Shown here piece by piece: positions 23,544 to 36,671 of a stretch of 64,000 nt of DNA. Source of the stretch: a virus. Taxonomy: Duplodnaviria > Heunggongvirae > Uroviricota > Caudoviricetes. Numbering within the stretch: position 1 is the first letter of the stretch; every line of letters begins with the position of its first letter. The stretch is taken from IMG/VR virus record IMGVR_UViG_3300037067_027627; one strand, 5' to 3'. The notes below the pieces were generated by a model that made no database searches, had not been told where the DNA came from, and saw only the letters and a program-made list of their open reading frames with translations. The translations under genes and the position numbers were made by a program.

Positions 23544-23788
23544 GTTTTTGTTTCCTCCATTTTACTTTACTTAATCCCCTCTTCGGGGAAACGTGAGTAG
23601 CGGGGGATCGAACCCCGCGCAAGTGCTGCCACACTTTTCCTGATGGTGATTCATCCAGACGTACAGAAATCCGGAAGCGGATGCCCTGTTCGGGAAACAT
23701 CCCATTATCCTTCCCACTCACACAATCACGACCCGGACGGCAAGCTCCGGTTCACGCCTCGGGGTTGTACGATCCTCAATCGTGAAAT

Positions 23789-23828
23789 GTCGTGAACGGG
23801 GCTCGCACCCGTTTGCCGCTCGACACGA
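23789..23828 (-). repeat. Intergenic tRNA-like minihelix repeat, copy 2; outer stem variant TCGTG/CACGA
   Basis: GTCGTGAACGGGGCTCGCACCCGTTTGCCGCTCGACACGAC. Compensatory change in the outer stem. Lies directly after the stop of 23838..24044. Confidence 0.8.
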
Positions 23829-23837
23829 CGGATAATC

Positions 23838-24044
23838 TCATCTAAGTATTATCACCGCTAACACAACAACTACTACAAATAATACGAATAGTGCTGGCAA
23901 CCAAACCAACCACCACGGCATGATAATGTTAAATCCATAAAACAATACAAGAAGCGCAATCTGCGCAACAAACAGCAATCCTACTGTAAAGTTAGACATG
24001 TTAGTTTCACTTCTGTTCGCAACATCCGCAAGCACCGTGTGCAT
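23838..24044 (-). CDS. Small membrane protein
   Basis: 68 aa, almost entirely hydrophobic. Confidence 0.4.
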   Translation of the reverse strand: MHTVLADVANRSETNMSNFTVGLLFVAQIALLVLFYGFNIIMPWWLVWLPALFVLFVVVVVLAVIILR

Positions 24045-24237
24045 GCGTGTTCATATACGCAATGTGATCTGCAAGATCATCGGCAATTGTTTGTGTGTAC
24101 CACGGTTTGATCAATGCAAGAATAGATTCGATCTGCTCTTCGGTGAGATCGTTGATCTCGATGTTGTACCAAACCGTATCTCTTCCGATACCATCTGGGT
24201 TGTGACATTCCGTTCTGTTATAATTCATTTGTACCAC
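24007..24237 (-). CDS. Hypothetical protein
   Basis: 76-aa ORF. Confidence 0.35.
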   Translation of the reverse strand: MVQMNYNRTECHNPDGIGRDTVWYNIEINDLTEEQIESILALIKPWYTQTIADDLADHIAYMNTHAHGACGCCEQK

Positions 24238-24417
24238 TTTAAAGTTATATGTGCGTGATATTAATCTTTTCCCATATCTTCCAACAAATCATCCAAGGGT
24301 TTTCGGTCGCCATATCTTTTCCCAGCGTTGCAGACAAAGCGATCGGTGAATAGATGCGATTCATACCATAGCAATGTCTGTATAATAGCAACAACTGGGC
24401 ATGTCATACGCCAACAC

Positions 24418-24789
24418 CTACTGATCTTCTTTTCTACGTAACTGGTCGCACGTTCTGAATCGTTTTACTGACAAAACCTGCCCCCGCCCGTCTCGTTTGG
24501 CTCCATTTGCACCTTTGGTATCTGGTGAAATAAAATCCGGTCGCGCCATTATCTGCGTCACCTGACTCGGGACTATGTACCACGTGTCTTTTGATGGCGA
24601 TGGAATGATATCATCTGCGGGCTCATAATATACCCGCTGGATAATTGGATTATCATCTATGGTTTTAATAACATCGTCCATCATTTCCAGCCGTAAAACT
24701 CGCCCATCCGGAGGATATTCATAAACACTTCCATCGGATCGTTCAACGATAATCGGATGCGAATTCAAGTTTATAATACGCGTGCTCAT
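24418..24789 (-). CDS. Hypothetical protein
   Basis: 123-aa ORF. Confidence 0.45.
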   Translation of the reverse strand: MSTRIINLNSHPIIVERSDGSVYEYPPDGRVLRLEMMDDVIKTIDDNPIIQRVYYEPADDIIPSPSKDTWYIVPSQVTQIMARPDFISPDTKGANGAKRDGRGQVLSVKRFRTCDQLRRKEDQ

Positions 24790-24815
24790 CGAATAACACC
24801 ATCAAACAGCGAGGA

Positions 24816-25139
24816 TTAATCCTCGCTGCCATCATCTTCGTCTTCGTCGTCTTCGTCGTCATCCTCATCGTCGTCTTCGTCCTCGCATTCGTCCTCGTCT
24901 TCGTCGTCACAAGGGCAATCGTCTTCGGGCTGTGTGAAATCAAGAATCTTGTCTTTCACGACCTCAACGTTGAAAATGTCTGATAATGCAACAGAGTCAT
25001 CCTCAATCAAATCGGTCATTGCTTCGTCGGCGATATCAATTGCTTCGCGCGGGTTCTTTGCTTCGACAATGGTAAATGCCGAATATTTTACTACGAACCT
25101 CTTTAGTACTGGTGCTTTACGTTTTCCCATAAGTATCAC
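24816..25139 (-). CDS. Hypothetical protein with a poly-acidic (D/E) C-terminal tail
   Basis: C-terminus PCDDEDEDECEDEDDDEDDDEDDEDEDDGSED. Confidence 0.45.
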   Translation of the reverse strand: MILMGKRKAPVLKRFVVKYSAFTIVEAKNPREAIDIADEAMTDLIEDDSVALSDIFNVEVVKDKILDFTQPEDDCPCDDEDEDECEDEDDDEDDDEDDEDEDDGSED

Positions 25140-25504
25140 TTCGTATTGGATTGTGTTTTTTCCACTGTGTCAAATATTCGCATCACATCATTTATATCTG
25201 TTTCGGTGAGCTTACAATCGCGAATCAGGAGATCTCCAAGTGAAGATAAGATCCGCTGACCATTCGTAAGAACAGCGCTCGTTGTTTTCGGGTCTACCTG
25301 CCCCTCGGATATCCCACGTAATGCCCCGGTAAGAGCAAAGATGTCAACAAGAAGTGCCTTTGCAGTGTTGTGATCGGCGCAGAAAATCGTAGGAACAGGG
25401 TTAAGAGTCTGCGCAACAGGATCCGGGTCTGATTGCACGTCTGTTTTTGATTTCTCAAGTACAATCTCGAAGTCGTTTTGTTTGTCCTTGTTTGTATCTG
25501 CCAT
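25136..25504 (-). CDS. Hypothetical protein
   Basis: 122-aa ORF. Confidence 0.45.
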   Translation of the reverse strand: MADTNKDKQNDFEIVLEKSKTDVQSDPDPVAQTLNPVPTIFCADHNTAKALLVDIFALTGALRGISEGQVDPKTTSAVLTNGQRILSSLGDLLIRDCKLTETDINDVMRIFDTVEKTQSNTK

Positions 25505-25505
25505 G

Positions 25506-25703
25506 TTATATTACCTCTAGTTTCTTCTGTGTCTTTGTTATTATACGTTTGTTTTCCCCGATACGCGTAAACGATCCTTCGACCAGTTCACTGATGCGAT
25601 GGCAATCCGGGCATTCTACCGTTTCGTGAATATCACTCATTGATTTCTTGGTAAATACCCCATGTTCACGGCATTTGTATATGCATGTAAATCGCAGTTT
25701 CAA
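25506..25703 (-). CDS. Zinc-ribbon protein
   Basis: CIYKCREHG...CPDCHR. Confidence 0.4.
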   Translation of the reverse strand: MKLRFTCIYKCREHGVFTKKSMSDIHETVECPDCHRISELVEGSFTRIGENKRIITKTQKKLEVI

Positions 25704-25728
25704 ATGGCAACACCACCAATAAAATTAG

Positions 25729-26169
25729 TTATGAGTATTCGTCCCCATACACTTCCTTAATATAAGGATCCGGATCCTCGATGCACATTACTTTTTTCTT
25801 CTCGGGTATCGTCATGTTCTGGTCTTCCATAATACTCTTACGTAAAGACTCCCGTGAAGATTTTAATTGCGTAAGTATAGACATCCGCGCAACTATTTTC
25901 TTTGCACCATTGTTAATTTCACCCTGCGATATCTCCCCGCTAAGAGAGAATACCGAAGATAATGAATCGTAATTCGCAATTGCTGCTGTGATTGCTGCTA
26001 GTTCACTACTTGTAAACCGATCATTACCAGTAACAATTGACTCCAACCCTCGCGCAGCCAGTTCAATTTCCGACAACATATCAACTAAATCACTTCGTAA
26101 CATCCCGAAAGTTACAACTAGATCACCATCGATATCGTCATCATCGTTTGAAAACCGTCCGGATACCAT
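25729..26169 (-). CDS. Hypothetical protein
   Basis: 146-aa ORF. Confidence 0.45.
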   Translation of the reverse strand: MVSGRFSNDDDDIDGDLVVTFGMLRSDLVDMLSEIELAARGLESIVTGNDRFTSSELAAITAAIANYDSLSSVFSLSGEISQGEINNGAKKIVARMSILTQLKSSRESLRKSIMEDQNMTIPEKKKVMCIEDPDPYIKEVYGDEYS

Positions 26170-26238
26170 GATCTGCCAAATACCTATTCCATTATCAATT
26201 CATATATAGGTTTCGGAACGACGGTGTGAGGGATAAAT

Positions 26239-26412
26239 TTACCTGAATCTGTGCTTATCGACAGGACGCTTTTTTTCTTCAAACGCCATAAATCGTTCAT
26301 GCTTCGCACATTTTTCCGAGAACGGGTTAAATGCAGATGGGCAGGTTAGTTCCCCGTTCTCATTTGTTGTATCCGCACATCCTTCGCAAAACTTATACTT
26401 TGAGCATACCAT
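26239..26412 (-). CDS. Small Cys-rich protein (57 aa), below the ORF-track length cut-off
   Basis: Hand translation gives MVCSKYKFCEGCADTTNENGELTCPSAFNPFSEKCAKHERF.... SD GAGGTAAAA lies upstream. Confidence 0.35.
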   Translation of the reverse strand: MVCSKYKFCEGCADTTNENGELTCPSAFNPFSEKCAKHERFMAFEEKKRPVDKHRFR

Positions 26413-26435
26413 GATTTTACCTCACATCCGGTTTC

Positions 26436-26750
26436 TTACTCTGCATCTTCGTCTTCGTCTGGGAGACCAAGGAAGATACGTGTGCCTTCAATCACGTGTT
26501 CGTAATCGATTTTGTTCTCGTTAAGTTTTCGCATCACGTCGTTCACAGTGAACGTTGCATTCGATTTCACCTGCAAATCCCTCACAGACTTGACTGCGAC
26601 CCCGAATTTAGAAACAGGTATCAAAAAGAAATCCTCAGTAACGTCTGCATTCAATCTGTTCTCGTTCGTAATACGCACTACAAGAAGTGCCTTGTCAGTA
26701 TCTTTCTCTGTCATGTTATACCTCTTTTTTCTTGAATCCCATGCACCCAA
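26436..26750 (-). CDS. Hypothetical protein
   Basis: 104-aa ORF. Confidence 0.45.
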   Translation of the reverse strand: MGAWDSRKKRYNMTEKDTDKALLVVRITNENRLNADVTEDFFLIPVSKFGVAVKSVRDLQVKSNATFTVNDVMRKLNENKIDYEHVIEGTRIFLGLPDEDEDAE

Positions 26751-26895
26751 TCTCTGGTTTAAGTCCCGGGATTATATCATCATACATGGGTATGTCCTTT
26801 GTTGTATTTATAACTCTTCCGAGAACGCGGCACCAGTTCGGAGAACGTTCCCCGTATCCCCCAGTGCTGCAATCTCTGCAAGGTAATTCTGGCAT
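26716..26895 (-). CDS. Small Cys-rich protein
   Basis: ORF-track entry 26716..26964 trimmed to MPELPCRDCSTGG so that it abuts the upstream gene. Confidence 0.35.
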   Translation of the reverse strand: MPELPCRDCSTGGYGERSPNWCRVLGRVINTTKDIPMYDDIIPGLKPEIGCMGFKKKEV

Positions 26896-26896
26896 G

Positions 26897-27247
26897 TTAT
26901 GATTCCTTCTTTGGATCACGTTCTTCGATAATCGCCGATAGTAAGATGAGGTAATTTCGGGCATCCGAAACTCGTTGTGAGAACCCTTCTGTAGCTCCAG
27001 TCCCGCCCCACCCCAGCCGTGTTCCGGGTCTCATCGCAGCCTTGGCAATAGCTTGGATATGCTTCATCATAAAAACAAGGCATACTTCTTCCGGGGTGAT
27101 CCCAAGTTGATTCGCGGTTGTCTTGAAGTTAACCAATACATCAGTATCGGCAGCATATTCAGATCGCTTTGTTATGAGGAGACTACGTTCAGCCCCCTCG
27201 AACATATTGTAGAGATTTTCAAAAGATTGTTTATCCATGATCTTCAC
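26897..27247 (-). CDS. Hypothetical protein
   Basis: 116-aa ORF. Confidence 0.45.
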   Translation of the reverse strand: MKIMDKQSFENLYNMFEGAERSLLITKRSEYAADTDVLVNFKTTANQLGITPEEVCLVFMMKHIQAIAKAAMRPGTRLGWGGTGATEGFSQRVSDARNYLILLSAIIEERDPKKES

Positions 27248-28674
27248 ACCTGCGCGTTTCTCCGTACCTGATCAAACGTCCAGTCACGGATAATACTCCC
27301 GTTCAGGAACACCGTGTTCAGGACATTATATCCCGGGACACATACTTCGTTTACAGTTGCATAGTGACCATCCTCACACGTGAGGATAAGCCGCCCGCGT
27401 TTGGAGGCTTTTCGCGCGTCTGATACCGGGCGTTTGTAAACGTCGTGCCATACCCCGTCAATATCGATCGCACTGCACTTGAATGCAAAACTCTGGGTAT
27501 CACGATTGACTTTCTGGAGAAGAGCACCGCCCATCCCGAACACGATATTGGACGGGGCGAACCGATACTTTCCGACAACCTCGTATAAAATCTGACTGAT
27601 CATATCGAGGCTGATGTAATCGCCATAGATAACACTGACGTGTGGATCGAGAACACGATACCCGCGTTCATTAACAGTCCCACCGTAGTGCTTCCACAAA
27701 AGTTCGAGAACCTGCAACGACATCCAAACCGGGTCGCCACTGTCTGGGCGGAGGACAACTTTGCCTTTACGCGCGATGATTTGGTCTTTCAGTAACTCAC
27801 CGAAATATTTGTCTGCTGCACGAATTGCATCGTATGAATCAATAACAACAGATGCAATCGCATCGTCCGGAGCACGACCGATGATCTCACGGTACGCTTC
27901 CTCCTCGTTCCCTTCCCCGTAACTGGTCACAGTTGAATGTTCTGCCGCATAAACGGAAAGGAGAATCGGATCGCGACTCATCTTGGCACTGTAATACTTG
28001 TTTGCATACCGTTTCGCAAGTAGATTGTCGCTCCCGGCGAAGTTCACTAAGTGTGCCATCCCGCCAATACCTGCGGTTTCTACAGATGATGCGCCACGGA
28101 ACCCAAAATCGTTCAGGTGCACAATCGATGCATGTTCACCGGCTTTTACTGCCCACCCTTCGATCACTTTACGAACTTCGCGACTCATTGTGGCTACGGT
28201 AATAGGATACCATACCAATTCAAGAAGTCCCTCGTAGAAGTTTGGAAGCCAGAAAGAATCGGGATCCGTGTTCTCAACGGTCATTAACACATTTTTGACC
28301 GGAACGACCATACCCTCTGGTACAGTCTTGATTTGCAGCGGAAGTTTCCCATCAAGATCGTTCGCAATGTGGCGAAAACCCTTCTCGTTGAAAAACTTAA
28401 ACCCGAATATCTCTTCGCTATCTGCAATAGCCTCGTCAATGGTTTCGTTTGTGATAACCTTCCCGGCGAGATATTTCTTCAAGTAATATTGAGTGCCGAA
28501 GCATACCGTTTCCGGGAACATACCCCCGCGACTCTCTAAATACGAGAACACAGTTCTGGTATTCTTTGGATACTGCATCCAGTGAGTTAATTTATATGCG
28601 TCAGTCGCTTCTTCCATGATGCAATCTGCCAAGATTGCCGCAGTGATAGGATTTTCTTTATTTACTTTGTCCAC
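27244..28674 (-). CDS. Nicotinamide phosphoribosyltransferase (NAMPT / NadV-like)
   Basis: 476 aa. The motifs GIGGMAHLVNFAGSDN and NIVFGMGGALLQ match NAMPT-family signatures; the overall length also fits. Confidence 0.7.
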   Translation of the reverse strand: MDKVNKENPITAAILADCIMEEATDAYKLTHWMQYPKNTRTVFSYLESRGGMFPETVCFGTQYYLKKYLAGKVITNETIDEAIADSEEIFGFKFFNEKGFRHIANDLDGKLPLQIKTVPEGMVVPVKNVLMTVENTDPDSFWLPNFYEGLLELVWYPITVATMSREVRKVIEGWAVKAGEHASIVHLNDFGFRGASSVETAGIGGMAHLVNFAGSDNLLAKRYANKYYSAKMSRDPILLSVYAAEHSTVTSYGEGNEEEAYREIIGRAPDDAIASVVIDSYDAIRAADKYFGELLKDQIIARKGKVVLRPDSGDPVWMSLQVLELLWKHYGGTVNERGYRVLDPHVSVIYGDYISLDMISQILYEVVGKYRFAPSNIVFGMGGALLQKVNRDTQSFAFKCSAIDIDGVWHDVYKRPVSDARKASKRGRLILTCEDGHYATVNEVCVPGYNVLNTVFLNGSIIRDWTFDQVRRNAQV

Positions 28675-28678
28675 TGTT

Positions 28679-28930
28679 TCACCTCTTTATTATAAGTTTC
28701 CTTCCCAAGTCAATACCCAGTGCGTCCTGCATCTCGCAATCGTTGTTCTTCGAGCAGGAGTCGCAATTCCCTGTTTCTTCACCGCACAACGTAGTTGCTG
28801 GCAAAACGATATTAACCGCATTCCCACTAGTATCAGTGCAGCGAAGTTCCATGAAACGCCGTCCGTCCGGACACGACATCCCGACAATCATCTGGATCAG
28901 TAAAACTTCCTCTGTCATTTCCTTTTTCAC
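28679..28930 (-). CDS. Small Cys-rich protein
   Basis: CPDGRRFMELRCTD...CGEETGNCDSCSKNNDC. The listed first codon is GTG. The true ATG is probably MTEEV, preceded by GGTGGGTGAAAAAGGAA. Confidence 0.4.
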   Translation of the reverse strand: MKKEMTEEVLLIQMIVGMSCPDGRRFMELRCTDTSGNAVNIVLPATTLCGEETGNCDSCSKNNDCEMQDALGIDLGRKLIIKR

Positions 28931-29135
28931 CCACCTGCAATGCAGGTAATATGAACGGCAGGGAATCGACCCCCGCGCATTTACTCGCTTGTGGTGTTCG
29001 CGAATGCAAACGCGACTTTCCGTGCTTTCACCTTTCGTTCATACCCAACGTTCCCGGATACAAACTCCCCACGGTCTAGGAGTGTCTGAACAGTTTTTGC
29101 AGCAACGTGTACACTTCTTTCTGAAACGTTGGATG

Positions 29136-29176
29136 CCGTGAACGGGGCTTGCACCCGTTCAGCCGCTAGTTCACGG
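29136..29176 (-). repeat. Intergenic tRNA-like minihelix repeat, copy 3; T-loop variant GCTTGCA
   Basis: CCGTGAACGGGGCTTGCACCCGTTCAGCCGCTAGTTCACGG. It abuts the stop of 29177..29632 with a 0-nt gap. Confidence 0.8.
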
Positions 29177-29632
29177 TTACTTGGAGTTCATCATATCTTC
29201 CCATGCGCCATCCGGAATCGTTTCGAGTTTTTTAATAAACCCCAACTCATTCTGTGTTACGTCGCATGGCTGCGGGACTTGATCTATTCCCGGCAATCTC
29301 TCCATCATTTCGCAATCCTTTTCAAACGTAATCGTGTGCCCGTTTAGTTCAACAAGAATAACCCTGTTGAATACCTGTTGCGCAATGAACCAGTTAAACG
29401 TGCGAAAAACGGTTTCACACATCCCTTCTCCAAGGATCCCACCAGCGAAAACAGTGTGTGTTCCGGAATGGAGTATTCTTGTTGTTGCACTGAGGACTGC
29501 AAGAACCGCATTCCTGTCATGGCGATCTATCGTCATCATCCCTTCCACGGTTATTCCGTTACTGCGTGCCGTTATCATTCGTCCCACATTCCCGTTCCAC
29601 TTTGAATTTCGCATCGAGATACATTGTCGCAA
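29177..29632 (-). CDS. Hypothetical protein
   Basis: 151-aa ORF. Confidence 0.45.
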   Translation of the reverse strand: MRQCISMRNSKWNGNVGRMITARSNGITVEGMMTIDRHDRNAVLAVLSATTRILHSGTHTVFAGGILGEGMCETVFRTFNWFIAQQVFNRVILVELNGHTITFEKDCEMMERLPGIDQVPQPCDVTQNELGFIKKLETIPDGAWEDMMNSK

Positions 29633-30092
29633 CTGGATTGAGTTCTATGCGACCCTGATTTTTAAGATAAAACTCTCTGGCACCTTCCAATGGATTCGGG
29701 TGTCCTTGTGCAGCACTCGCGCCAACCATGTCACAATACATCTCTGTCATTGCATCCCATGTCGGGCGTATTGCTCTTACGGGTCTGTAGAAATGTGATC
29801 CGTGCGTTTCCATCACCCAGAATTGCCAGTGATGATCATTCATGTGTTGGTGATGACACCATGCACGGTTAAACGCTTCGTTTTGACGGCTCAACGGGGG
29901 TTCTGTATCGAGATCCCGCCGTTTCCCATTCGGATGGAAGAAATAATTCGCGTATGCAGAGAATTCCGTAAGAGAGAATTTACTCATATCATGGAAAACG
30001 CCACGCCAGAATATCCCTTCGTGCATGCACAACCAGAACACATACCATTTGTGTATCATTGTATACTTGAAGTGCTCCCAGTATTGCCACAT
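29559..30092 (-). CDS. Hypothetical His-rich protein
   Basis: 177-aa ORF (WCHHQHMNDHHWQFW). Confidence 0.45.
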   Translation of the reverse strand: MWQYWEHFKYTMIHKWYVFWLCMHEGIFWRGVFHDMSKFSLTEFSAYANYFFHPNGKRRDLDTEPPLSRQNEAFNRAWCHHQHMNDHHWQFWVMETHGSHFYRPVRAIRPTWDAMTEMYCDMVGASAAQGHPNPLEGAREFYLKNQGRIELNPVATMYLDAKFKVERECGTNDNGTQ

Positions 30093-30650
30093 TTATCTCA
30101 CTGCCTTTTTCCCGAGTTTTAACGGTTTCGGCTTCCGCACGACTTCATACGTGGTTTTCACTGGGAGTACACCAGTATATTCGGTCACAACTGCCTTTCC
30201 GAGTATATCATCGGCGATGCCAAGCGGTATTTCTGAATCTTTCACCATCTTGAGTGATTTGTTATAATCATCGTTCAAATTTTCAAGTTGCTTCAGCCGT
30301 ATCTTCGTATAAGCATCCGGGAACTTCGCCTTGAATGTCGGGATATCTGTAATATGATTACGCATTTGTTTCCCGTATTTTTCCGCAATCATTGCATCAT
30401 CGTCAGATGTTATTTTCTCATTTATAGCTCGTTTTAACAACGTCTCGCGCTGTTTGCTAAGACTCGTCAGATATGGCATAATTTCGTCGTTTATGCGGTT
30501 CATCTCGTCGTCGATCAGTAGAATGCGGGTCAAAACCAACGATGAAGGGCACCCGGTAACATAATCAACATTGGATACTGATTTAATATCAGACGATTGA
30601 ACGGGCAACGGGTTCTCTTTCAGATCTTCTCTTTCATCTTGTGTACTCAT
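30093..30650 (-). CDS. Hypothetical protein
   Basis: 185-aa ORF. Confidence 0.45.
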   Translation of the reverse strand: MSTQDEREDLKENPLPVQSSDIKSVSNVDYVTGCPSSLVLTRILLIDDEMNRINDEIMPYLTSLSKQRETLLKRAINEKITSDDDAMIAEKYGKQMRNHITDIPTFKAKFPDAYTKIRLKQLENLNDDYNKSLKMVKDSEIPLGIADDILGKAVVTEYTGVLPVKTTYEVVRKPKPLKLGKKAVR

Positions 30651-30654
30651 ACTA

Positions 30655-30891
30655 TCATCTTATCCTAAGGCAATTGCAGCATCGCGCGCAAACAATATCG
30701 ACAAGTCCACACCTTGGACATATTCGTAGCGAATAGTCATTACAGTTTTCACCTGCGGGACACTCAAGCCCTGTAGAAATAACCCATAGATGACCCCGTT
30801 TTTTGCATACATTTTCGCGGTTCCATAACTGGATTGACTTCCGCACATGGGCCTTAGTTTTGCGTATCAAATTACGTGTCTGTTCAAACAT
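30655..30891 (-). CDS. Cys-rich zinc-binding protein
   Basis: CPAGENCNDYSLRICPRCGLVDIVCARCCNC. Confidence 0.4.
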   Translation of the reverse strand: MFEQTRNLIRKTKAHVRKSIQLWNRENVCKKRGHLWVISTGLECPAGENCNDYSLRICPRCGLVDIVCARCCNCLRIR

Positions 30892-30912
30892 TCTTTATCC
30901 CTCCGGGATCGA

Positions 30913-31230
30913 TTATAGGAATATTGAATCGGTGTAATCGATGTTATGAACAATCGACTTTCTTATAACACGATATCCCCATTCCTTGAGAGCATTATAT
31001 ACAATCTGTTCCTGCTCTACATAACGTTGTGAAATATCCTTGTATTTCGTTCGTTCATGAGTTTCTAACATCACTTTTAAACGCATGGTATGATGCGATG
31101 ATACGTTTCCTTCTACGAGAATGCAAGTCCAATCGAATATTTTGTTATCAGAGAGCAGCTTGCCATCATAAATAACCAATGCAGTAACAATTAGATCACT
31201 TACACTTTTTTCATCCGTCAATGCCACCAT
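30913..31230 (-). CDS. Hypothetical protein
   Basis: ORF-track entry 30913..31326 trimmed to MVALTDEK. The upstream extension overlaps a tRNA-like T-arm element. Confidence 0.4.
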   Translation of the reverse strand: MVALTDEKSVSDLIVTALVIYDGKLLSDNKIFDWTCILVEGNVSSHHTMRLKVMLETHERTKYKDISQRYVEQEQIVYNALKEWGYRVIRKSIVHNIDYTDSIFL

Positions 31231-31428
31231 ATATCCCACCCGGGAATGTGAATGCCGGGAATCGAACCCGGTAAATTCGTGACGTGAATCACGCCCGCGT
31301 GTTACCATTACACTCTGCTTCCACACCCACAGTGCCCGTTATTCCCCATCCATCTCCGTTCGGTCTTGGAGTACGGTTAATAGGGTATTGATCTGTTGAA
31401 CATCGATAAGTCAGACCCACTGTGGATT

Positions 31429-31468
31429 CCGTGAACGGGGCTCGCACCCATTCGATTTCTGGTCACGG
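31429..31468 (-). repeat. Intergenic tRNA-like minihelix repeat, copy 4
   Basis: CCGTGAACGGGGCTCGCACCCATTCGATTTCTGGTCACGG. The G-to-A change gives a U-G wobble only in the minus-strand RNA. Lies 10 nt after the stop of 31479..32504. Confidence 0.8.
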
Positions 31469-31478
31469 ATATGAAAAA

Positions 31479-32504
31479 TTATGAAGATTGTTTTACCGGC
31501 AGCATGATTGGCATCTGCATTCCAGATCCTGTGGTAGTCCCAGTGGATCCGGTGCCCATCTCTGATGGTGCTACGATAATGAGGTTGCCTTTTGCCCCGA
31601 TACTCTCCAGTGCCTCGATGTATTTCCACTCAATGAGCTGCTGAGAAATACCTTCGGATACTGTATTCTGGAAGTCACGGATACCGTTTGCTTCCGCACG
31701 TTTACGATCTGCTTCTGCTTCTGCCACAGACACTTCAAACCGCTTCTTCTGGATATCCTGTTCCATGTTGAGCTTGGAAGTGATCGAGTCTTTGAGAGAC
31801 TGCGGCGGGTCGATATTGCGGATGTATACCTGTTCAATAACGATCGCGTCTTTAACGCCAACGTTGCTTACACTGTTTCTGATTCCAGTGTCAATCTCTT
31901 TCTCGATTGCCACGCGATCCGAACTGTCCGTTGTTTCTTCGTCAGAGTAGAGTTTCTTTACCTCATACTTGGCAATAACATCACGCGGGACTGCATGCAT
32001 TGGGTTTGTGATGATTGTGTTCTGGTAATCAACACCGACGTGCTTGTATACCTCAACCGCTTTAAGTGGATCGAGATGATAGTTTGCCGCTATGCCTACG
32101 GTAACCGGGAGACCCTCATTCGAGAGTGCCTGAATTGTTGCAGTATCTGACGTCCCGTAATCCATATACCGCTGCGTCTGTACATTCATAGAAATGACAG
32201 ATACCCACGGTGCTTTAAGATGAAGCCCGGGTTGAAGAACGTTGTCGTCAACATTTCCAAACGAATCCTGAATACCCACGTTCCCTGCTGGAACCTGCGC
32301 AATCATTGTCAATGCCAGCACAAGAAGTGCTACAACTGATACACCGATTACTTTTAACATGATAGACCATTTCCCACTAGATTTCACAACTGCGGCTGCA
32401 AGTTCCCAGAGATTGATATCTCCATTGGAGATACATCGAAGTGTTGGTGGTAATAACAAGAACACCCCGACTGCAACTAGCAGAATAGTGCTTACAAATA
32501 CCAT
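31479..32504 (-). CDS. SPFH/band-7 (stomatin/prohibitin/HflK/C-like) membrane protein
   Basis: N-terminal TM helix, then a region typical of the SPFH fold (...AEAEADRKRAEANGIRDFQ...LIEWKYIEALESI). Confidence 0.6.
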   Translation of the reverse strand: MVFVSTILLVAVGVFLLLPPTLRCISNGDINLWELAAAVVKSSGKWSIMLKVIGVSVVALLVLALTMIAQVPAGNVGIQDSFGNVDDNVLQPGLHLKAPWVSVISMNVQTQRYMDYGTSDTATIQALSNEGLPVTVGIAANYHLDPLKAVEVYKHVGVDYQNTIITNPMHAVPRDVIAKYEVKKLYSDEETTDSSDRVAIEKEIDTGIRNSVSNVGVKDAIVIEQVYIRNIDPPQSLKDSITSKLNMEQDIQKKRFEVSVAEAEADRKRAEANGIRDFQNTVSEGISQQLIEWKYIEALESIGAKGNLIIVAPSEMGTGSTGTTTGSGMQMPIMLPVKQSS

Positions 32505-33004: not shown

Positions 33005-33042
33005 GCATTTCACCTGTTTTGCCCGCCAACACAGACGGGAAA

Positions 33043-33082
33043 CCGTTAACGGGGCTCGCACCCGTTTGCCTTCTGGTAACGG
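33043..33082 (-). repeat. Intergenic tRNA-like minihelix repeat, copy 5; compensatory outer-stem variant CCGTTA/TAACGG
   Basis: CCGTTAACGGGGCTCGCACCCGTTTGCCTTCTGGTAACGG. The paired double substitution preserves the stem. The variant also creates the stop codon of 33046..33333. Confidence 0.85.
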
Positions 33083-33333
33083 TTGGGTAACCAATTCTTG
33101 TTCACCCATCGCTTACAATTTATGCTCCCGGCTCTTACAAACCCTTCTCTCTTAAGCCACGCTGTAATAGTTTCGTTGAACAATCCTCCGGTTTCCAATT
33201 GTAGTTCGTCACGGTAGACTGCACCGAATTTGTCAATCAACTTTGATGTTGCAGACGTTAGAACCTCGTGGTGAATATTAACCTTCAACTGTGATTCCGG
33301 AATTCTCTTGTAAACCATAGATTCACTCCTCAT
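33046..33333 (-). CDS. Hypothetical protein whose last ~13 codons lie in repeat copy 5
   Basis: 95 aa. The C-terminus ...RYQKANGCEPR is the translated repeat. Confidence 0.45.
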   Translation of the reverse strand: MRSESMVYKRIPESQLKVNIHHEVLTSATSKLIDKFGAVYRDELQLETGGLFNETITAWLKREGFVRAGSINCKRWVNKNWLPNRYQKANGCEPR

Positions 33334-33921: not shown

Positions 33922-34064
33922 ACCGCGAATGATGCAAGAGCATCGGCATCATAATAATGTATAACGAACACCGACTCCAGCACCGTCGAATAGAAGTATA
34001 ATGCAAAGATGACCGCGATCACGAAACCTATCGGTATGAAAACCCATTGCGAAATTACAACCAT
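33849..34064 (-). CDS. Small membrane protein
   Basis: 71 aa with two hydrophobic helices. Overlaps the previous ORF, so only one of the two may be real. Confidence 0.35.
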   Translation of the reverse strand: MVVISQWVFIPIGFVIAVIFALYFYSTVLESVFVIHYYDADALASFAVCVFGILVAVFGLIPYLPKLVIMP

Positions 34065-34091
34065 GTAATCACCAGAAAAATAGTGCGGTGA

Positions 34092-35589
34092 TTATCTCAC
34101 CGCGTTGATGTCAATCCTCTCGACTTCATCGACAAGTGTAGTTCCATTCATCTCGTAAAGATTCAGGAACCGCAGAGAGTTGTCTGCCCACCCGCCAACT
34201 GTGCAGTGCTTCCGCTCGCCCTCTGGGAACTGCGTGGTTCCGTAGTGCGCCAGATCGAACGTGTACACGAACGGGTTGTTTCCGGTCTTGATACGGAACG
34301 ACCTGAAAGCATCGTAGCAACTTGGTCGCCCGTATCCCTGCTCGTCCGTGAAGAAGATAATCCGGTCTACATCAGGCATATCCTTTGCGACTGCGCTAAT
34401 ACACAGTCCGGTGTGGGTTGATCCGCCGGTTCTATCTCCAGCATCACGTATCTTGTCTACGTTTGTGAGGATACTGTCCCGTGGGTTTGCCCGAACAATC
34501 GACACGCTTGTACCGAATGCGTATACCTTGCAATCATCAGCGCGCGATGCAACCATAGCTCCGAAGACGTTTCCGATATCCTTGTGAGTTACCATAGACT
34601 TCTCGTGGATACTACTGTTCATCGATCCGCTGTTATCACAGAATACCGCAGTTTTCCCCGGGATGCAAGTCATATTCTCTGCGCTAACCGCCATTGCGTC
34701 TGACAGTGCCGCCTTGATCTTCTCTACCCCGTTGTAGTTAAGGCTCTCGATCTGTCTGTATGCAGTGTAGTACTGCACCGGGATCATTCGTGATCTACGC
34801 ACACGATCTTCATCTGCAACTTCTGCACAAACATCACTGATGTTGACACCGCGCTTCATAAGGTTGCGAAGGTTTCGGATGATACCAAGGTATCCCATTG
34901 CATCAAGGATGTGTGTCCAGTTCTTCTTTGTGGAACCGTTGACCATGATATAGTTCTCCCATGTCTCCGGAAGAGGCAGAGTGCCACCGATAATGTTCTG
35001 GAACATTGTCTCCTGCCCATCGCGTGGCTTTGGGTGTGTCAGGAACATAACGTCCCGTGGCTTGATCATCATGTCATCCTTCGTATACTTGGCAAACTGG
35101 TAACTGTCGAAGCTCACGAACGCCTTCGCAAGACCGCGCTTGATCGCCATTGGCAGGTAAGTTCTCTCCATCTTGTACTGCTTGTTCAGCATCATACAAT
35201 ATGCAAGAAGCTCTGTCATGTCGTCCACACGCTTGATCGACTTCGCAACGTAGTTCGAACCATTCGGGATGTCCTTTGCCCCTGCGTAGATCGCCTCAGC
35301 GAGAATCACCGTTGTGGGTGTTCTCATGTTGAACCGGTTACGCGTGTACCAAGCACCTTTGAGTGCGAGTTCCGGGTCATCCGATCTCGAAATGTTCCGG
35401 ATAAGATCGACAAATCTCTTGTTCGATGCCTCTCCCGACTCGTAAAACGTATTCATCTTCGCAACGGTTGTTGCCGCGCGCAGGATGAACTCCAGCTTCT
35501 CGGATGGCTTGAATGCCTCTCCACCCTCGTAGTTCACGGTGACCTTTGCAGCCACCTTTCTCTTTCCAACTGTCTTGTTAAACTGCATG
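34092..35589 (-). CDS. rsr: Ro60-like TROVE-domain protein with a C-terminal vWA domain (Rsr ortholog)
   Basis: ~500 aa, alpha-helical repeat N-terminal region plus C-terminal MIDAS FCDNSGSM; this architecture and length match Ro60/Rsr. Start placed at MQFNK, which has SD GAGGTGA 6 nt upstream. Confidence 0.65.
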
Positions 35590-35633
35590 TTTCTCACCTC
35601 ATGAGATTGTATTCGCATCACGATACGGTGAAA

Positions 35634-35686
35634 GCGGAATGGCGGGGTTGCACCGCAGCGCGCAAGGCTTCAAGCCCTTATTCCGC
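35634..35686 (-). ncRNA. tRNA-like mini-RNA: acceptor-like stem GCGGAAU/AUUCCGC enclosing a T-arm-like hairpin (UGCAACC loop) and a second hairpin
   Basis: Perfect 7-bp inverted repeat closes two internal hairpins. Same strand as rsr and 45 nt upstream of it. Confidence 0.35.
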
Positions 35687-35877
35687 ATTGATCGAAAGTG
35701 GGGTTATCATGTGGATCTGGTTTAATATTTGTTTCAGATCGTTTGTGACACTTCGGGAAACGACCAAACCCGGACGGAGTTGAACCGCCTAATTTTAGTT
35801 CCGTAGACTAATGTGTAACCGAAGTAACCATTTCCAATCGCATCCCCACCAAATTTACATGAGACCTGAATGGAACG

Positions 35878-35980
35878 TGGAGAGATTGTGCGGGTCAGGC
35901 TTTGCCCTTTCGGGCGAGTTACGGATTCATGTGTAGTGAAATATAACGATGAAACCTTCCCCTGTCGCAACTCCACTGTG
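35878..35980 (-). ncRNA. Y-RNA-like structured RNA, unit A
   Basis: Minus-strand RNA. Terminal helices GUGGAG..CUCCAC and UGCG..CGCA around an internal loop. Internal hairpin UCGCCC-GAAA-GGGCAA (GNRA loop). Conserved block GCGACAGGGGAAGGUUUCAUCGUU shared with unit B. Confidence 0.45.
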
Positions 35981-35996
35981 TAAACATAATAGCAAT

Positions 35997-36090
35997 GGTG
36001 CGTTATTATGCGGGTCTCGCAGCCCTCCCCGAAGGGAGGAATTGTTAACCTAGATGTAAACGATGAAACGATTCCCTGTCGCATCGCACC
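35997..36090 (-). ncRNA. Y-RNA-like structured RNA, unit B (tandem paralog of A)
   Basis: Terminal helices GGUGCG..CGCACC and AUGCG..CGCAU. Hairpin CUCCC-UUCG-GGGAG (UNCG loop). T-arm-like GGGC-UGCGAGA-CCCG. Tetraloops are canonical only in the minus sense. Confidence 0.45.
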
Positions 36091-36154
36091 TATTGCATTG
36101 TGTTCTTGTTATTACTTATGTATGTTCGATTCTGTATATATAACTTGTCACAAA

Positions 36155-36418
36155 TCACCCATCATCAGGATCTTTGCGTTCACATTCTGCACATTTTGTG
36201 TAGATTTTGCTGCGTATGTCCAGTATTACATTTGCAACCGCGCATGCTTGCGTAAACGTCAACGGAATTTCCGTGGTGTTTACTGGGTCTTCTATGACCA
36301 TCACGTAGTCACGGAACCACCCACGCTTCAGCAGAAGACCAGACAACTTACTGTTAAGCTTCGTCAATGAAACCGTTGTGTTGTTCGTAGTGCATTCTAT
36401 AATCACTCTCTGCAACAT
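36155..36418 (-). CDS. Hypothetical protein
   Basis: Start at MLQRVIIE, preceded by GAGGTGAAAAGA-ATG. The ORF-track start is a GTG inside the leader. Confidence 0.45.
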   Translation of the reverse strand: MLQRVIIECTTNNTTVSLTKLNSKLSGLLLKRGWFRDYVMVIEDPVNTTEIPLTFTQACAVANVILDIRSKIYTKCAECERKDPDDG

Positions 36419-36671
36419 TCTTTTCACCTCGTAAAATTCAATGTGCCTAACACGGGGGTATGAGCCCCGCGTGTTGTAATGGCGATTCGAATCCTGTTTG
36501 GACTCAGGACTCCGACTTACGTGTATGATGTCCCCGCGTTTAACGCAGGGAAATTCCGGATACGACGTTTGACCATCGTATCCGGTACCTGATATGAAGT
36601 AAATCCGATCCTAACGTGTCGGGCGCGGGTCAATAGTGTCAACCACCACCCCAAGTCAATACTTGGGAAGA

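What the first reader, a model, noticed from the sequence alone, without database searches (positions are those of the whole stretch)
23560..36671. Second family of T-arm-bearing long leaders between a repeat copy and the next start codon
At four places the gap between the upstream signal and the next start codon is 190-245 nt, not ~40 nt: 23544-23788, 28931-29135, 31231-31428 and 36419-36671. Each long leader contains a near-perfect T-arm:
- GCGGGG-UUCGAUC-CCCCGC at ~23609-23631;
- GCGCGGGGGUCGAUUCCCUGCC at ~28955-28978, clearly homologous to the first;
- CCGGG-UUCGAUU-CCCGG at ~31252-31270, with a D-arm-like GUGU-AAUGGUA-ACAC ~35 nt upstream;
- a 10-bp bulged hairpin AACACGCGGGG-CUCAUA-CCCCCGUGUU at 36437-36466, 10 nt upstream of the SD.

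For 23560-23700 a 5' acceptor-like strand TGAGTGG pairs with CTACTCA at the 3' side of the T-arm, about 140 nt apart. This could be a tRNA with a ~65-nt intron, or a larger tRNA-like leader.

These might be additional unannotated tRNAs with introns, or cis-regulatory tRNA mimics in 5' UTRs (T-box-like or RNase P-dependent).
Basis: seen in the sequence. Interest (0 to 1): 0.55.

Follow-up and report, generated by a model that had tools for sequence, protein, structure and literature searches.

The report
tRNA-mimic elements punctuating viral genes
Three of the four long leaders are anticodon-less tRNA look-alikes and the short repeat before them is a mini-tRNA, so this probably archaeal virus seems to use tRNA mimics as cut marks between genes, an inference with no transcript data yet.

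Summary

- **T-arms.** Leaders 1-3 each carry a genuine T-arm flush against an acceptor-like stem. Leader 4 has only plain hairpins.
- **Not tRNA genes.** ARAGORN and Rfam reject them, BHB intron motifs occur at chance level, and in the leader-3 family a free-varying hairpin (4-9 bp) replaces the anticodon arm.
- **Leader 3.** It is conserved in four related viruses as a two-part RNA: a near-invariant ~95-nt 5' domain ("domain A", no Rfam match) plus an ~85-nt tRNA mimic. The mimic keeps invariant D and T arms and covarying acceptor and hairpin stems.
- **The upstream "repeat".** It is a 42-nt acceptor/T-arm minihelix (7+5 bp) with eight copies, all on the minus strand. Seven of its 12 pairs show compensatory changes.
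- **Context.** The elements sit in a gene block with Ro60, three tandem Y-RNA-like units, an RNA ligase and RlaP. BRE/TATA boxes suggest an archaeal host.

Best reading: these are t-element-like signals for RNase P and tRNase Z that cut polycistronic transcripts and may release stable mimic RNAs. They lack the local Y-RNA signature. Cleavage is inferred, not shown.

The parts
23789..23829 (-). Minihelix repeat copy upstream of leader 1: acceptor GUCGUGU/UCACGAC, T arm ACGGG-UGCGAGC-CCCGU.
   Evidence: Covariance model R1 scores it 56.7 bits. Structure and covariation were tested.
23722..23788 (-). Leader 1, 5' domain. It is closed by UCACGAUU/GGUCGUGA and only loosely resembles domain A of leader 3.
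   Evidence: MFE fold; alignment A8. The homology to domain A is tentative.
23593..23721 (-). Leader 1 tRNA-like element, 129 nt. It has a 7-bp acceptor-like stem (GUGAGUG/UACUCAC), a D-like hairpin whose loop contains AAUGGGA, two further hairpins, a small variable-arm-like hairpin, and the T arm at 23600-23618.
   Evidence: The MFE fold recovers the closing stem and the T arm. T-arm scan; acceptor search. ARAGORN and Rfam do not call a tRNA.
23576..23588 (-). Small hairpin CCCC-GAAGA-GGGG between the tRNA-like element and the SD GGAGG (23554-23558). The start codon is ATG 23543.
   Evidence: Sequence; start-codon table.
29135..29177 (-). Minihelix repeat copy upstream of leader 2.
   Evidence: R1 scores it 49.5 bits.
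29044..29134 (-). Leader 2, 5' domain. It is closed by CCAACGUUUC/GGGAACGUUGG and contains the hairpin ACUCC-UAGACCGUGG-GGAGU, which resembles P3 of domain A.
   Evidence: MFE fold, z = -2.5 for the whole leader; alignment A8.
28950..29043 (-). Leader 2 tRNA-like element, 94 nt. It has an 8-bp acceptor-like stem (UAUGAACG/CGUUCAUA), an internal 5-bp/7-nt-loop hairpin UCGCG-UUUGCAU-UCGCGA, and the T arm GCGGGG-GUCGAUU-CCCUGC at 28958-28976. No D arm is recognisable.
   Evidence: The MFE fold recovers the closing stem and T arm. Relaxed T-arm scan. No Rfam match.
28933..28947 (-). Small hairpin ACCUGCA-UU-GCAGGU ahead of the SD and the start codon ATG 28918.
   Evidence: Sequence. The start agrees with the public gene call on contig L001.
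31428..31469 (-). Minihelix repeat copy upstream of leader 3.
   Evidence: R1 scores it 50.3 bits.
31332..31427 (-). Leader 3 domain A, a conserved three-way junction. P1 is CACAGUG/CACUGUG, P1a is a variable hairpin, P2 is CCC/GGG, and P3 is CCGU-A-CUCC/GGAG-AUGG with loop AAGACCGAAC. The joining strand reads GGGGAAUAACGGG.
   Evidence: It is almost invariant in L032, L074, L077 and L031. RNAalifold finds 3 covarying pairs in P1. A diverged copy lies in L033 at 12417-12470. No Rfam match.
31247..31331 (-). Leader 3 domain B, an anticodon-less tRNA mimic. It has an 8-bp acceptor stem, D arm GUGU-AAUGGUA-ACAC, hairpin CGUGA-UUCACG-UCACG in the anticodon position, a 6-nt variable region, and T arm CCGGG-UUCGAUU-CCCGG.
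   Evidence: All four homologues parse the same way, with covarying acceptor and hairpin stems and invariant D and T arms. The Rfam tRNA match is partial at 18 bits. ARAGORN calls the L032 homologue 'tRNA-???' with a 2-nt anticodon.
31234..31245 (-). Small hairpin UCCC-GGGU-GGGA ahead of the start codon ATG 31230.
   Evidence: Sequence. The JGI gene call gives a 105-aa product from this start.
36671..36713 (-). Minihelix repeat copy upstream of leader 4.
   Evidence: R1 scores it 50.3 bits.
36419..36670 (-). Leader 4, a strongly structured leader without a T-loop. Its hairpins lie at 36556-36585, 36532-36550, 36489-36512 and 36449-36475.
   Evidence: MFE z = -5.6. The 3' ~100 nt are conserved in L031. 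Only the last hairpin survives in L029, which keeps the downstream gene.
22330..22371 (-). Minihelix repeat copy with a short (37-nt) leader.
   Evidence: R1 scores it 60.8 bits; leader length.
33042..33083 (-). Minihelix repeat copy with a short leader. Its acceptor shows a compensatory change, ACCGUUA/UAACGGU.
39117..39158 (-). Minihelix repeat copy with a short leader.
   Evidence: R1 scores it 58 bits.
40757..40798 (-). Minihelix repeat copy with a short leader.
   Evidence: R1 scores it 56.8 bits.

Best explanation
The long leaders, and the 42-nt repeat in front of them, are tRNA-derived 't-elements'. These are RNA structures that keep the part of a tRNA read by the tRNA end-processing enzymes: the acceptor stem stacked on the T arm, plus in leader 3 the D/T elbow. 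They have lost the anticodon arm.

Proposed mechanism (inferred, not shown):
1. The 22-41 kb gene block is transcribed as long polycistronic RNA from a few BRE/TATA promoters.
2. RNase P cuts at the 5' side of each element and tRNase Z cuts after its discriminator base.
3. The upstream mRNA therefore ends just after its stop codon.
4. The downstream mRNA begins with a small protective hairpin followed by the SD and start codon.
5. At the four long leaders the same cuts would also release a 90-190-nt tRNA-mimic RNA. For leader 3 this would be domain A plus domain B, with both ends defined by tRNase Z-type sites. That RNA may have a function of its own.

Shown here: the structures, their covariation, their positions relative to genes, and their independence from any particular downstream gene.
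For: **The repeat is a tRNA minihelix.**
- It has a 7-bp acceptor and a 5-bp T stem, 12 stacked bp as in tRNA, with a 7-nt loop.
- Across 20 copies from the window and eight related loci, 95% of cells pair and 7 of 12 pairs show double-sided changes. None of 500 shuffles reaches these values, and slid controls collapse to 23-47% paired.
- Its loop UGCGAGC matches the UGCRANY T-loops of this virus's own tRNAs, for example those with T arms ending at 10647, 2181, 1647 and 1243. Some relatives have UUCAAGC instead.

**The layout is stereotyped.** The order is stop codon, 0-25 nt, minihelix, 1-2 nt, small hairpin, SD, start codon.

**The long leaders keep the same recognition module.**
- Leaders 1-3 each have a T arm abutting an acceptor-like stem.
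- The leader-3 mimic is conserved in L032, L074 and L077, with invariant D and T arms. Its acceptor stem and the hairpin in the anticodon position show compensatory changes.

**Position is conserved while form changes.**
- The homologue of the leader-1 gene in L033 is preceded by a 38-nt minihelix, GGGCUG-CGA-AGGGG-UUCGACA-CCCCU-CAGCUC.
- NAMPT in L075 is preceded by another minihelix.

**The elements are not tied to one gene.** Domain A precedes a DUF5662 gene in L031 and a different small gene in L033.

**The distribution fits one transcribed block.** There are exactly 8 minihelices, all on the coding strand between 22.3 and 40.8 kb. Outside the window they occur only in the close clade.

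**Precedent exists.** t-elements are cut by RNase Z and RNase P in plant mitochondria (PMC1920247). A tRNA-like element upstream of the Haloferax 5S rRNA is processed by tRNase Z and RNase P (PMC4326828, citing Holzle 2008 and 2012).
Against: - There are no transcript data, so no cleavage site is demonstrated.
- In leaders 1 and 2 the T stem can extend to 6 bp. In leader 3 the acceptor has 8 bp, and its three homologues carry a bulged U. The stack is therefore 13-14 bp, not the canonical 12.
- In leader 3, helix P1 of domain A abuts or overlaps the 5' acceptor strand. A structured leader is a poor RNase P substrate.
- Whether the (unknown) host's tRNase Z accepts minihelices is not known.
- A pure processing role does not explain the near-invariant domain A, nor why four sites need 150-200 extra nucleotides when 42 nt suffice at the other four.
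- Leader 4 has no T-arm.
- Some relatives keep the downstream gene without the long leader: L002 for the leader-3 gene and L029 for the leader-4 gene. The long forms are therefore dispensable for expressing those genes.
Confidence: 0.5

Rival explanations
1. The long leaders are stand-alone non-coding RNA genes. They would be stable tRNA-mimic RNAs whose main job is done in trans. Examples are partners of the viral Ro60/RNA-repair proteins, or decoys for host tRNA-targeting nucleases. Processing would be only how they mature.
For: - Domain A is more conserved than the neighbouring proteins. Rsr protein identity among the same viruses is only 69-83%.
- The composite travels as a cassette in front of different genes.
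- The neighbourhood encodes Ro60, three Y-RNA-like units, an RNA ligase and RlaP.
- Bacterial Y RNAs are known tRNA mimics that RNase P cleaves (PMC4201824).
Against: - The leaders lack the signature GCGAYWG-N(3-14)-TWCWTCG. That signature matches only the three Y-RNA-like units of the window, and in 21 other Rsr-anchored loci, excluding L001/L006 (same virus) and L005 and HGTV-1 (exceptions noted in the full report), it lies within a few hundred nt upstream of rsr on the same strand.
- No BRE/TATA box lies in front of them.
- Their order is tRNA-like, not the permuted T-AS-D order of YrlA.
- Binding partners cannot be tested here.
- This rival overlaps the best explanation rather than excluding it.
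Confidence: 0.22
2. The leaders are gene-specific cis-regulators in 5' UTRs, riboswitch- or T-box-like. Domain A would sense a ligand or a tRNA and control the downstream gene.
For: Domain A is a compact three-way junction with invariant loop and junction nucleotides. A loop-junction pseudoknot (CCG with CGG) is possible. It sits shortly upstream of an SD.
Against: - Downstream genes differ among relatives: the leader-3 gene, DUF5662 and other small ORFs.
- No expression platform is evident. There is no terminator and no SD-sequestering alternative.
- Rfam gives no match even when filters are relaxed on short windows.
Confidence: 0.1
3. The leaders are decaying tRNA pseudogenes or recombination scars with no present function. 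The repeat would act at the DNA level as a cassette boundary or recombination hot spot.
For: - Gene content between repeat copies is shuffled among relatives.
- A TnpB/Cas12f-like gene with a CRISPR-like array sits right after a repeat copy in L032.
- Leaders 1 and 2 have no close homologues in the data fetched.
Against: - Compensatory changes preserve both helices of the minihelix and the stems of domain B, while the loops keep T-loop and D-loop identity.
- All copies are on the transcribed strand, at a fixed distance from the SD and start codon.
Confidence: 0.08
4. The leaders are functional tRNA genes interrupted by archaeal (BHB) introns or long insertions.
For: - The host looks archaeal.
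- HGTV-1 carries an annotated 132-nt 'tRNA-Asp + intron' near its TROVE gene.
- Leader 2 contains a hairpin with a 7-nt loop, UUUGCAU.
Against: - ARAGORN and Rfam give no call.
- BHB motifs are at chance level and are not placed at an anticodon loop.
- Homologues of leader 3 have hairpins of varying length with 4-8-nt loops where the anticodon arm should be.
- ARAGORN also fails to call the HGTV-1 'tRNA-Asp + intron'. That sequence carries the Y-RNA signature inside its 'intron'.
Confidence: 0.03

Closest known systems
t-elements: tRNA-like processing signals of plant mitochondrial mRNAs and of the Haloferax volcanii 5S rRNA precursor (PMC1920247; PMC4326828, citing Holzle et al. 2008 and 2012)
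   Same: They are non-decoding tRNA-like folds built around a conserved T arm and an acceptor-like stem. They lie directly at mRNA or rRNA borders. Some are simple acceptor-like stem-loops. The excised element can persist as a small RNA.
   Different: - Here they are carried by a virus.
- They form a high-copy sequence family, with 8 near-identical 42-nt minihelices in 18.5 kb.
- Three larger versions are fused to an extra 5' domain.
- Cleavage has not been demonstrated.
Bacterial and phage Y RNAs of the YrlA type (Chen et al. 2014, PMC4201824)
   Same: They are tRNA mimics with T and D arms, encoded within a few kb of a Ro60/TROVE gene on the same strand. RNase P and CCA-adding enzyme act on them.
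   Different: - YrlA has the permuted order 5' stem, V, T, acceptor hairpin, D, 3' stem, and carries a Ro-binding motif near its 5' end.
- The leaders have the normal tRNA order with an open acceptor.
- The leaders lack the signature GCGAYWG...TWCWTCG that marks the window's three Y-RNA-like units at 35698-36090.
tRNA punctuation of animal mitochondrial transcripts, and mascRNA released from MALAT1 (my own knowledge; the Rfam mascRNA model gives only a weak 13-17-bit T-arm match)
   Same: tRNA or tRNA-like folds embedded in long transcripts are used by RNase P and RNase Z to define the ends of neighbouring RNAs.
   Different: Mitochondrial punctuation uses real tRNAs. mascRNA is a single eukaryotic case. 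Here a dedicated family of degenerate mimics sits inside a viral gene block.
HGTV-1 'tRNA-Asp (gtc) + intron' (NC_021328.1, 70440-70571)
   Same: It is a 132-nt tRNA-like element with acceptor, D and T arms and a long insertion. It lies on the same strand as the TROVE gene, about 2.8 kb upstream, in an archaeal tailed virus. Its size matches leader 1 (129 nt).
   Different: Its insertion carries the Y-RNA signature GCGAUUGG...GUUACUUCG. The window's leaders do not. There is no sequence homology to leaders 1-3.

Membership tests
Canonical decoding tRNA | Called by tRNA gene finders, or reaches the Rfam RF00005 gathering score | tested here: not met
   ARAGORN finds 14 tRNAs, none in the leaders. 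The best Rfam tRNA match is leader 3 at 18 bits against a gathering score of 29. Leaders 1 and 2 give no tRNA match.
Canonical decoding tRNA | 5-bp anticodon stem with a 7-nt loop (U33, purine 37) | tested here: not met
   In the leader-3 family the arm is 4-9 bp with loops of 4-8 nt that differ in every homologue. Leader 1 has a long interrupted hairpin with a tetraloop. Leader 2 does have a 5-bp/7-nt hairpin, UCGCG-UUUGCAU-UCGCGA, but no D arm and no tRNA call.
Canonical decoding tRNA | T arm (5-bp stem, loop UUCRANY) directly followed by the 3' acceptor strand | tested here: met
   for leaders 1-3. Leader 2 has G at loop position 1.
Archaeal intron-containing pre-tRNA | Bulge-helix-bulge motif (3-nt bulge, 4-bp helix, 3-nt bulge) whose excision restores a cloverleaf | tested here: not met
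   My own strict hBHBh' scan gives 4, 3, 2 and 0 hits against shuffle means of 3.1, 2.1, 2.1 and 3.1. None flanks an anticodon-like loop. tRNAscan-SE in archaeal mode was not available.
t-elements (tRNA-like processing signals) | Non-canonical cloverleaf or stem-loop that keeps the T-arm motif and an acceptor-like stem | tested here: met
   Minihelix. Leaders 1-3.
t-elements (tRNA-like processing signals) | Located at the border between transcribed units, on the transcribed strand | tested here: met
   All 8 minihelices and all long leaders lie between a stop codon and the next SD/start codon, on the coding strand.
t-elements (tRNA-like processing signals) | RNA ends coincide with the element's borders (cleavage by RNase P and RNase Z) | not testable with these tools
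   This needs transcript end mapping or in-vitro cleavage.
Y RNA / YrlA | Encoded near Ro60 (within about 4 kb) on the same strand | tested here: inconclusive
   All four are on the same strand as rsr (34092-35588). Leader 4 lies 0.8 kb upstream. Leaders 3, 2 and 1 lie about 2.7, 5 and 10.4 kb downstream.
Y RNA / YrlA | Conserved Ro-associated 5' motif. Chen et al. give GNCGAAN0-1G. In this viral group the signature is GCGAYWG-N(3-14)-TWCWTCG. | tested here: not met
   The pattern matches only 35820-35841, 35947-35968 and 36061-36082 in the window. In 21 other Rsr-anchored loci, excluding L001/L006 (same virus) and L005 and HGTV-1 (exceptions noted in the full report), the match lies within a few hundred nt upstream of rsr on the same strand. 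No leader matches.
Y RNA / YrlA | Permuted tRNA-like module (T arm, acceptor hairpin, D arm) nested in a 5'/3' stem | tested here: not met
   Leader 3 has the order acceptor 5', D, hairpin, T, acceptor 3'. The YrlA order is taken from PMC4201824.
T-box riboswitch or any other Rfam cis-regulator | Match to a curated covariance model | tested here: not met
   Nothing reaches gathering scores in the leaders. E-value scans of 14.5 kb and of four short windows give only chance-level hits.

The most novel reading that the evidence does not exclude
The ~185-nt composite of leader 3 would be a new class of viral non-coding RNA. It joins a near-invariant pseudoknotted three-way junction (domain A) to an anticodon-less tRNA mimic. 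Both of its ends would be cut by the host's tRNA-processing enzymes, out of a transcript punctuated by mini-tRNAs. Its 'head' (domain A) would bind a protein or small molecule. Its tRNA 'body' would recruit or divert tRNA-handling machinery, for example as a decoy for tRNA-targeting defence nucleases or as a cofactor of the viral Ro60/RNA-ligase/RlaP repair set. Leaders 1 and 2 would be diverged members.
Probability: 0.25. Interest if true: 0.8.

Novelty: new variant of a known kind. Interest (0 to 1): 0.6.

Why it matters
If the model holds, this virus group has turned tRNA fragments into a punctuation system for a roughly 20-kb block of genes. Such punctuation is so far known from organelles and from one archaeal rRNA precursor, not from viruses.

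It would also give three things:
- A compact, portable 42-nt processing tag for archaeal genetics. t-elements have already been used this way in Haloferax (PMC4326828).
- A new conserved RNA domain (domain A) with no Rfam family.
- A caution for annotation. 'tRNA + intron' calls near TROVE genes in archaeal viruses, such as the one in HGTV-1, may be tRNA-mimic regulatory RNAs rather than tRNAs.

The co-location with Ro60, Y-RNA-like units, an RNA ligase and RlaP makes the locus a natural test bed. It could show how viruses manipulate tRNA-like RNAs during conflict with host RNA-targeting defences.

Tried and rejected
- **Megablast against cultured phages.** Query 23000-31500 gave no match.
- **IMG/VR scans.** Scans with the Rsr protein, the leader-1 gene product, the repeat and a domain A pattern found nothing. 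An alignment-based Rsr scan returned only about 30%-identical viruses, which lack the minihelix.
- **GTDB genome scan with the repeat.** It returned 9 single hits, all in 63-69% GC bacterial contigs and none in a tRNA.
- **Homologue search with the 105-aa leader-3 gene product.** It returned only itself.
- **P0087 contig (220 kb).** The DNA could not be fetched.
- **Domain A loop as a Ro60-binding motif.** The loop GACCGAAC resembles vertebrate GGUCCGAAG. I rejected the idea as unsupported. The GACCGAA seen in distant Rsr viruses lies in a covarying stem (CCGA/UCGG against CUGA/UCAG). The real local Y-RNA signature is different.
- **Mini-ORF in domain A.** AUG GAU GGG GAA UAA is not conserved in L077 or L033.
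- **82-aa ORF in leader 1 (23700-23452).** It has no family match, it has no counterpart upstream of the L033 homologue, and it overlaps the next gene.
- **Repeat as a promoter.** This is unlikely. The promoters in front of the tRNA and Y-RNA genes are BRE/TATA type, and the repeat shows RNA-type covariation.
- **NAD+ (nadA) riboswitch.** The ACAACCCC in leader 1 resembles it, but there is no Rfam match.

Full report
**1. What is there**

All genes and all 14 ARAGORN tRNAs in this part of the window are on the minus strand. The finding's sequences read correctly only as reverse complement.

The "upstream signal" ACGGGTGCGAGCCCCGTTCACG occurs eight times, always on the minus strand, between 22.3 and 40.8 kb. 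A covariance model built later finds exactly these eight copies and nothing else.

The distance from the repeat to the best SD-preceded start codon is 37-39 nt at four copies. At the other four it is 247, 218, 199 and 254 nt. So the "long leader" observation holds. For leader 2 the start is ATG 28918, as in the public gene call on the 99.99%-identical contig L001.

**2. The T-arms**

A strict scan (5-bp stem plus loop TTCRANY) finds 14 sites in 64 kb, all on the minus strand, against about 0.5 expected from mononucleotide shuffles.
- Ten sites lie in called tRNAs.
- The others are leader 1 (23601-23617), leader 3 (31255-31271), a site upstream of the Ro60 gene (35773-35789) and a tRNA-like element at 1384-1400.
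- Leader 2 (28959-28975, loop GUCGAUU) appears with a relaxed loop pattern.

In each of leaders 1-3 the strand directly 3' of the T stem pairs with a strand 52-96 nt upstream of the T arm, giving a 7-8-bp acceptor-like stem (for leader 2 the adjacent pairing is the one in the fold). Unconstrained MFE folds of leaders 1 and 2 recover this closing stem and the T arm.

Leader 4 has no T-loop. Its UUCGAAU is the 3' strand of a conserved hairpin. It is simply a very structured leader, with z = -5.6.

**3. They are not tRNA genes**

- ARAGORN and Rfam at gathering thresholds call nothing in the leaders.
- E-value scans of 14.5 kb and of each leader separately give only a partial tRNA match for leader 3. 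It scores 18 bits against a gathering score of 29, and the D and T arms align while the anticodon arm is skipped.
- A strict bulge-helix-bulge scan gives chance-level counts, and none is placed at an anticodon loop.
- The decisive evidence is comparative (section 4).

**4. Relatives and the anatomy of leader 3**

No cultured phage and no IMG/VR contig is close. I reached relatives in two ways:
- Through homologues of the Ro60-like protein encoded at 34092-35588.
- Through a DUF5662 protein.

Leader 3 has homologues in L032, L074 and L077. Its 5' half also has a homologue in L031. It consists of two domains.

*Domain A (31332-31427).* It is nearly invariant from GAUCAAUACCC to GGGGAAUAACGG across these viruses, whose Rsr proteins are only 69-83% identical to the window's.
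- RNAalifold folds it as a three-way junction.
- P1 has 3 covarying pairs.
- P1a is a variable hairpin.
- P2-P3 carries the loop AAGACCGAAC.
- A diverged copy (CUUCC-AAACCGAAC-GGAAG...GGGGAAUAUCGG) precedes another tRNA-like element in L033.
- It has no Rfam match.

*Domain B (31247-31331).* All four viruses parse into the same scheme:
- an 8-bp acceptor stem with compensatory changes;
- an invariant D arm, GUGU-AAUGGUA(A)-ACAC;
- an invariant T arm;
- a 6-nt variable region;
- in the anticodon position, a hairpin that differs in every virus: CGUGA/UCACG, CGUA/UACG, CGUUUCA/UGAAACG and CCUGCCAAC/GUUGGUGCGG, with loops of 4-8 nt.

ARAGORN labels the L032 copy "tRNA-???" with a 2-nt anticodon. 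Domain B is therefore a tRNA mimic that keeps the acceptor/T stack and the D/T elbow but cannot decode.

Leaders 1 and 2 share the T-arm segment UGCGCGGGG(U/G)UCGAU(C/U)CCC with each other. They have the same overall layout: a 5' closed domain, then an acceptor-closed multi-helix domain ending in the T arm. Their similarity to domain A is loose, and I found no close homologues of either.

**5. The repeat is a mini-tRNA**

Read as RNA, the repeat is ACCGUGA-(8-15 nt)-ACGGG-UGCGAGC-CCCGU-UCACGGU. That is a 7-bp acceptor stem plus a 5-bp T stem with a 7-nt loop, the 12-bp stack of a tRNA.
- In 20 copies from the window and eight related loci, 95% of cells pair and 7 of 12 pairs show double-sided changes. 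Examples are ACCGUUA/UAACGGU, ACCGAGA/UCUCGGU, AUCGCGC/GCGCGAU and GCGGG/CCCGC.
- No shuffle out of 500 reaches the observed values, and slid controls fall to 23-47% paired.
- The loop UGCGAGC looks unlike a T-loop. However, several of the virus's own tRNAs have UGCRANY T-loops, and relatives carry UUCAAGC.
- The minihelix occurs only in the close clade and always on the strand of rsr.

The intergenic layout is stereotyped: stop codon, 0-25 nt, minihelix, 1-2 nt, small hairpin (for example GCCC-GUUU-GGGC), SD, start codon. The long leaders insert their 150-200 nt between the minihelix and the small hairpin.

**6. Independence from the downstream gene**

- Domain A precedes DUF5662 in L031 and a 60-aa ORF in L033. 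The composite precedes the leader-3 gene homologue in L032.
- The leader-3 gene homologue in L002 has no such leader.
- The leader-4 gene homologue in L029 keeps only the last hairpin.
- The leader-1 gene homologue in L033 is preceded by a different, 38-nt minihelix.
- NAMPT in L075 is preceded by yet another minihelix.

So position is conserved (a tRNA-like element before the hairpin and SD), but form and partner gene are not. This argues against gene-specific riboswitch or T-box control. It favours a generic RNA-processing or RNA-stability role, or cassette-like non-coding RNAs.

**7. Context**

The block encodes the following:
- RlaP (19476-20171);
- an RNA ligase (20171-21253);
- NAMPT (27244-28674);
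- DUF5662;
- a Band-7 protein;
- a TROVE/Ro60-vWA protein.

The 570-nt gap upstream of rsr holds three tandem Y-RNA-like units (about 36090-35997, 35974-35879 and 35850-35698). They are conserved in five relatives and preceded by a conserved AAAG-N-TTTATATA box.

The signature GCGAYWG-N(3-14)-TWCWTCG matches only these three units in the window (0.07 matches expected). Among the fetched loci it matches 27. Two of these (L001, L006) are the window's own virus. In 21 other Rsr-anchored loci the match lies within a few hundred nt upstream of rsr on the same strand. The exceptions are:
- L005, where the match lies about 220 nt upstream of the tblastn match to Rsr;
- HGTV-1, where it lies about 2.8 kb upstream, inside the annotated "tRNA-Asp + intron".

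The four leaders lack the signature, so they are not Y RNAs of this family.

*Host.* Several features point to an archaeal host, without proving it:
- BRE/TATA boxes lie 24 nt upstream of the tRNA at 2638 and upstream of the Y-RNA-like units.
- CCA is not encoded in the two tRNA genes inspected.
- tRNA-Gln is of the A1-U72 type (my reading).
- The best cultured-virus matches of both Rsr and the RNA ligase include the haloarchaeal virus HGTV-1.

**8. Interpretation**

The closest known things are t-elements, tRNA-like folds that RNase P and tRNase Z use as cut marks.
- In plant mitochondrial mRNAs they were found by screening for GGTTCRANYCC, and some are mere acceptor-like stem-loops (PMC1920247).
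- A tRNA-like element lies upstream of the Haloferax 5S rRNA. It has been reused experimentally to release a crRNA (PMC4326828).

I propose that the minihelices and the long-leader mimics punctuate polycistronic transcripts of this block. Cleavage after the discriminator base would leave the downstream mRNA with a 5' hairpin plus SD. At the long leaders the same cuts would free tRNA-mimic RNAs. For leader 3 this would be a ~185-nt A+B RNA with both ends set by tRNase Z-type sites.

The structures, covariation and placement are shown here. Cleavage, the enzymes involved and any trans function are inferred. The invariant domain A is not explained by processing alone. It is the most interesting open point.

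**9. Novelty**

I found no paper describing virus-borne t-elements or this domain in the searchable library. Rfam has no matching family. I therefore class it as a new variant of a known kind (t-elements, or tRNA punctuation). An additional uncharacterised RNA domain is attached to it.

Noticed in passing
window 34092-35588 (-) and 35698-36090 (-): A TROVE/Ro60-vWA (Rsr) gene is preceded by three tandem Y-RNA-like units at about 36090-35997, 35974-35879 and 35850-35698. The third has a T arm, GGCGG-UUCAACU-CCGUC. All three carry the signature GCGAYWG...TWCWTCG and sit behind a conserved BRE/TATA box at 36135-36146. The signature recurs upstream of rsr on the same strand in 21 other Rsr-anchored loci.
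   Followed up: partly
L087 (HGTV-1, NC_021328.1 70440-70571): The annotated 132-nt 'tRNA-Asp (gtc) + intron' lies about 2.8 kb upstream of the HGTV-1 TROVE gene. ARAGORN does not call it. Its 'intron' contains the Y-RNA signature GCGAUUGGAAGCGUUACUUCG. It is probably a tRNA-shaped Y RNA rather than a tRNA.
   Followed up: partly
L032 4069-6030: In a relative, a 453-aa TnpB/Cas12f1-like gene sits exactly where the window has leader 2 and its 79-aa gene, after a repeat copy and before NAMPT. It is followed by a CRISPR-like array of about 11 copies of GTGACAGGGAGAGTTCTGGTATAACTTGCATTGTGAC, with spacers of about 20-35 nt. The gene caller placed a minus-strand ORF over the array.
   Followed up: no
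window 1375-1440 (-): A D-armless tRNA-like element lies next to tRNA-Arg. Its acceptor is GUCCUGA/UCGGGAC, it has a 4-bp arm with loop UUGCGGC, and its T arm is identical to that of leader 3. Neither ARAGORN nor Rfam calls it. A similar D-armless element lies in L002 at 1268-1335.
   Followed up: partly
window 2568-2638 (-) and 2662-2673 (-): Rfam finds a fifteenth tRNA (47 bits; anticodon loop CUCAUAA) that ARAGORN misses. A TTTATATA box lies 24 nt upstream of it, an archaeal-type promoter spacing. No CCA is encoded after this tRNA or the next one.
   Followed up: partly
window tRNAs with T arms ending at 10647, 2181, 1647 and 1243 (-): Several of the virus's own tRNAs (Leu-GAG, His, Asp, Glu) have T-loops reading UGCRANY, with G at position 55 instead of the near-universal U. 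The minihelix repeat has the same loop type.
   Followed up: no
window 19476-21253 (-), 27244-28674 (-), 11242-12465 (-): RlaP and an RNA ligase are adjacent, which suggests an RNA-repair pair. NAMPT and a cytidylyltransferase-like protein suggest possible NAD+ salvage. The RNA ligase and Rsr both have HGTV-1 among their best cultured-virus matches.
   Followed up: no
window 5465-6235 (+): A LAGLIDADG_2 homing-endonuclease ORF lies on the opposite strand, between the two tRNA clusters.
   Followed up: no
L002 1400-1497: ARAGORN calls a 92-nt 'tRNA-Thr (tgt)'. Its anticodon arm is a 9-bp hairpin with a 21-nt U-rich loop. It is followed by a small hairpin, an SD and a start codon. This is another anticodon-less tRNA mimic used as a leader in a more distant relative.
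   Followed up: partly
L031 1770-1809: The L031 homologue of leader 4 contains a degenerate minihelix (CGGG-UUCGAGU-CCCG; R1 scores it 24 bits). The window's leader 4 has a different sequence at that place.
   Followed up: no
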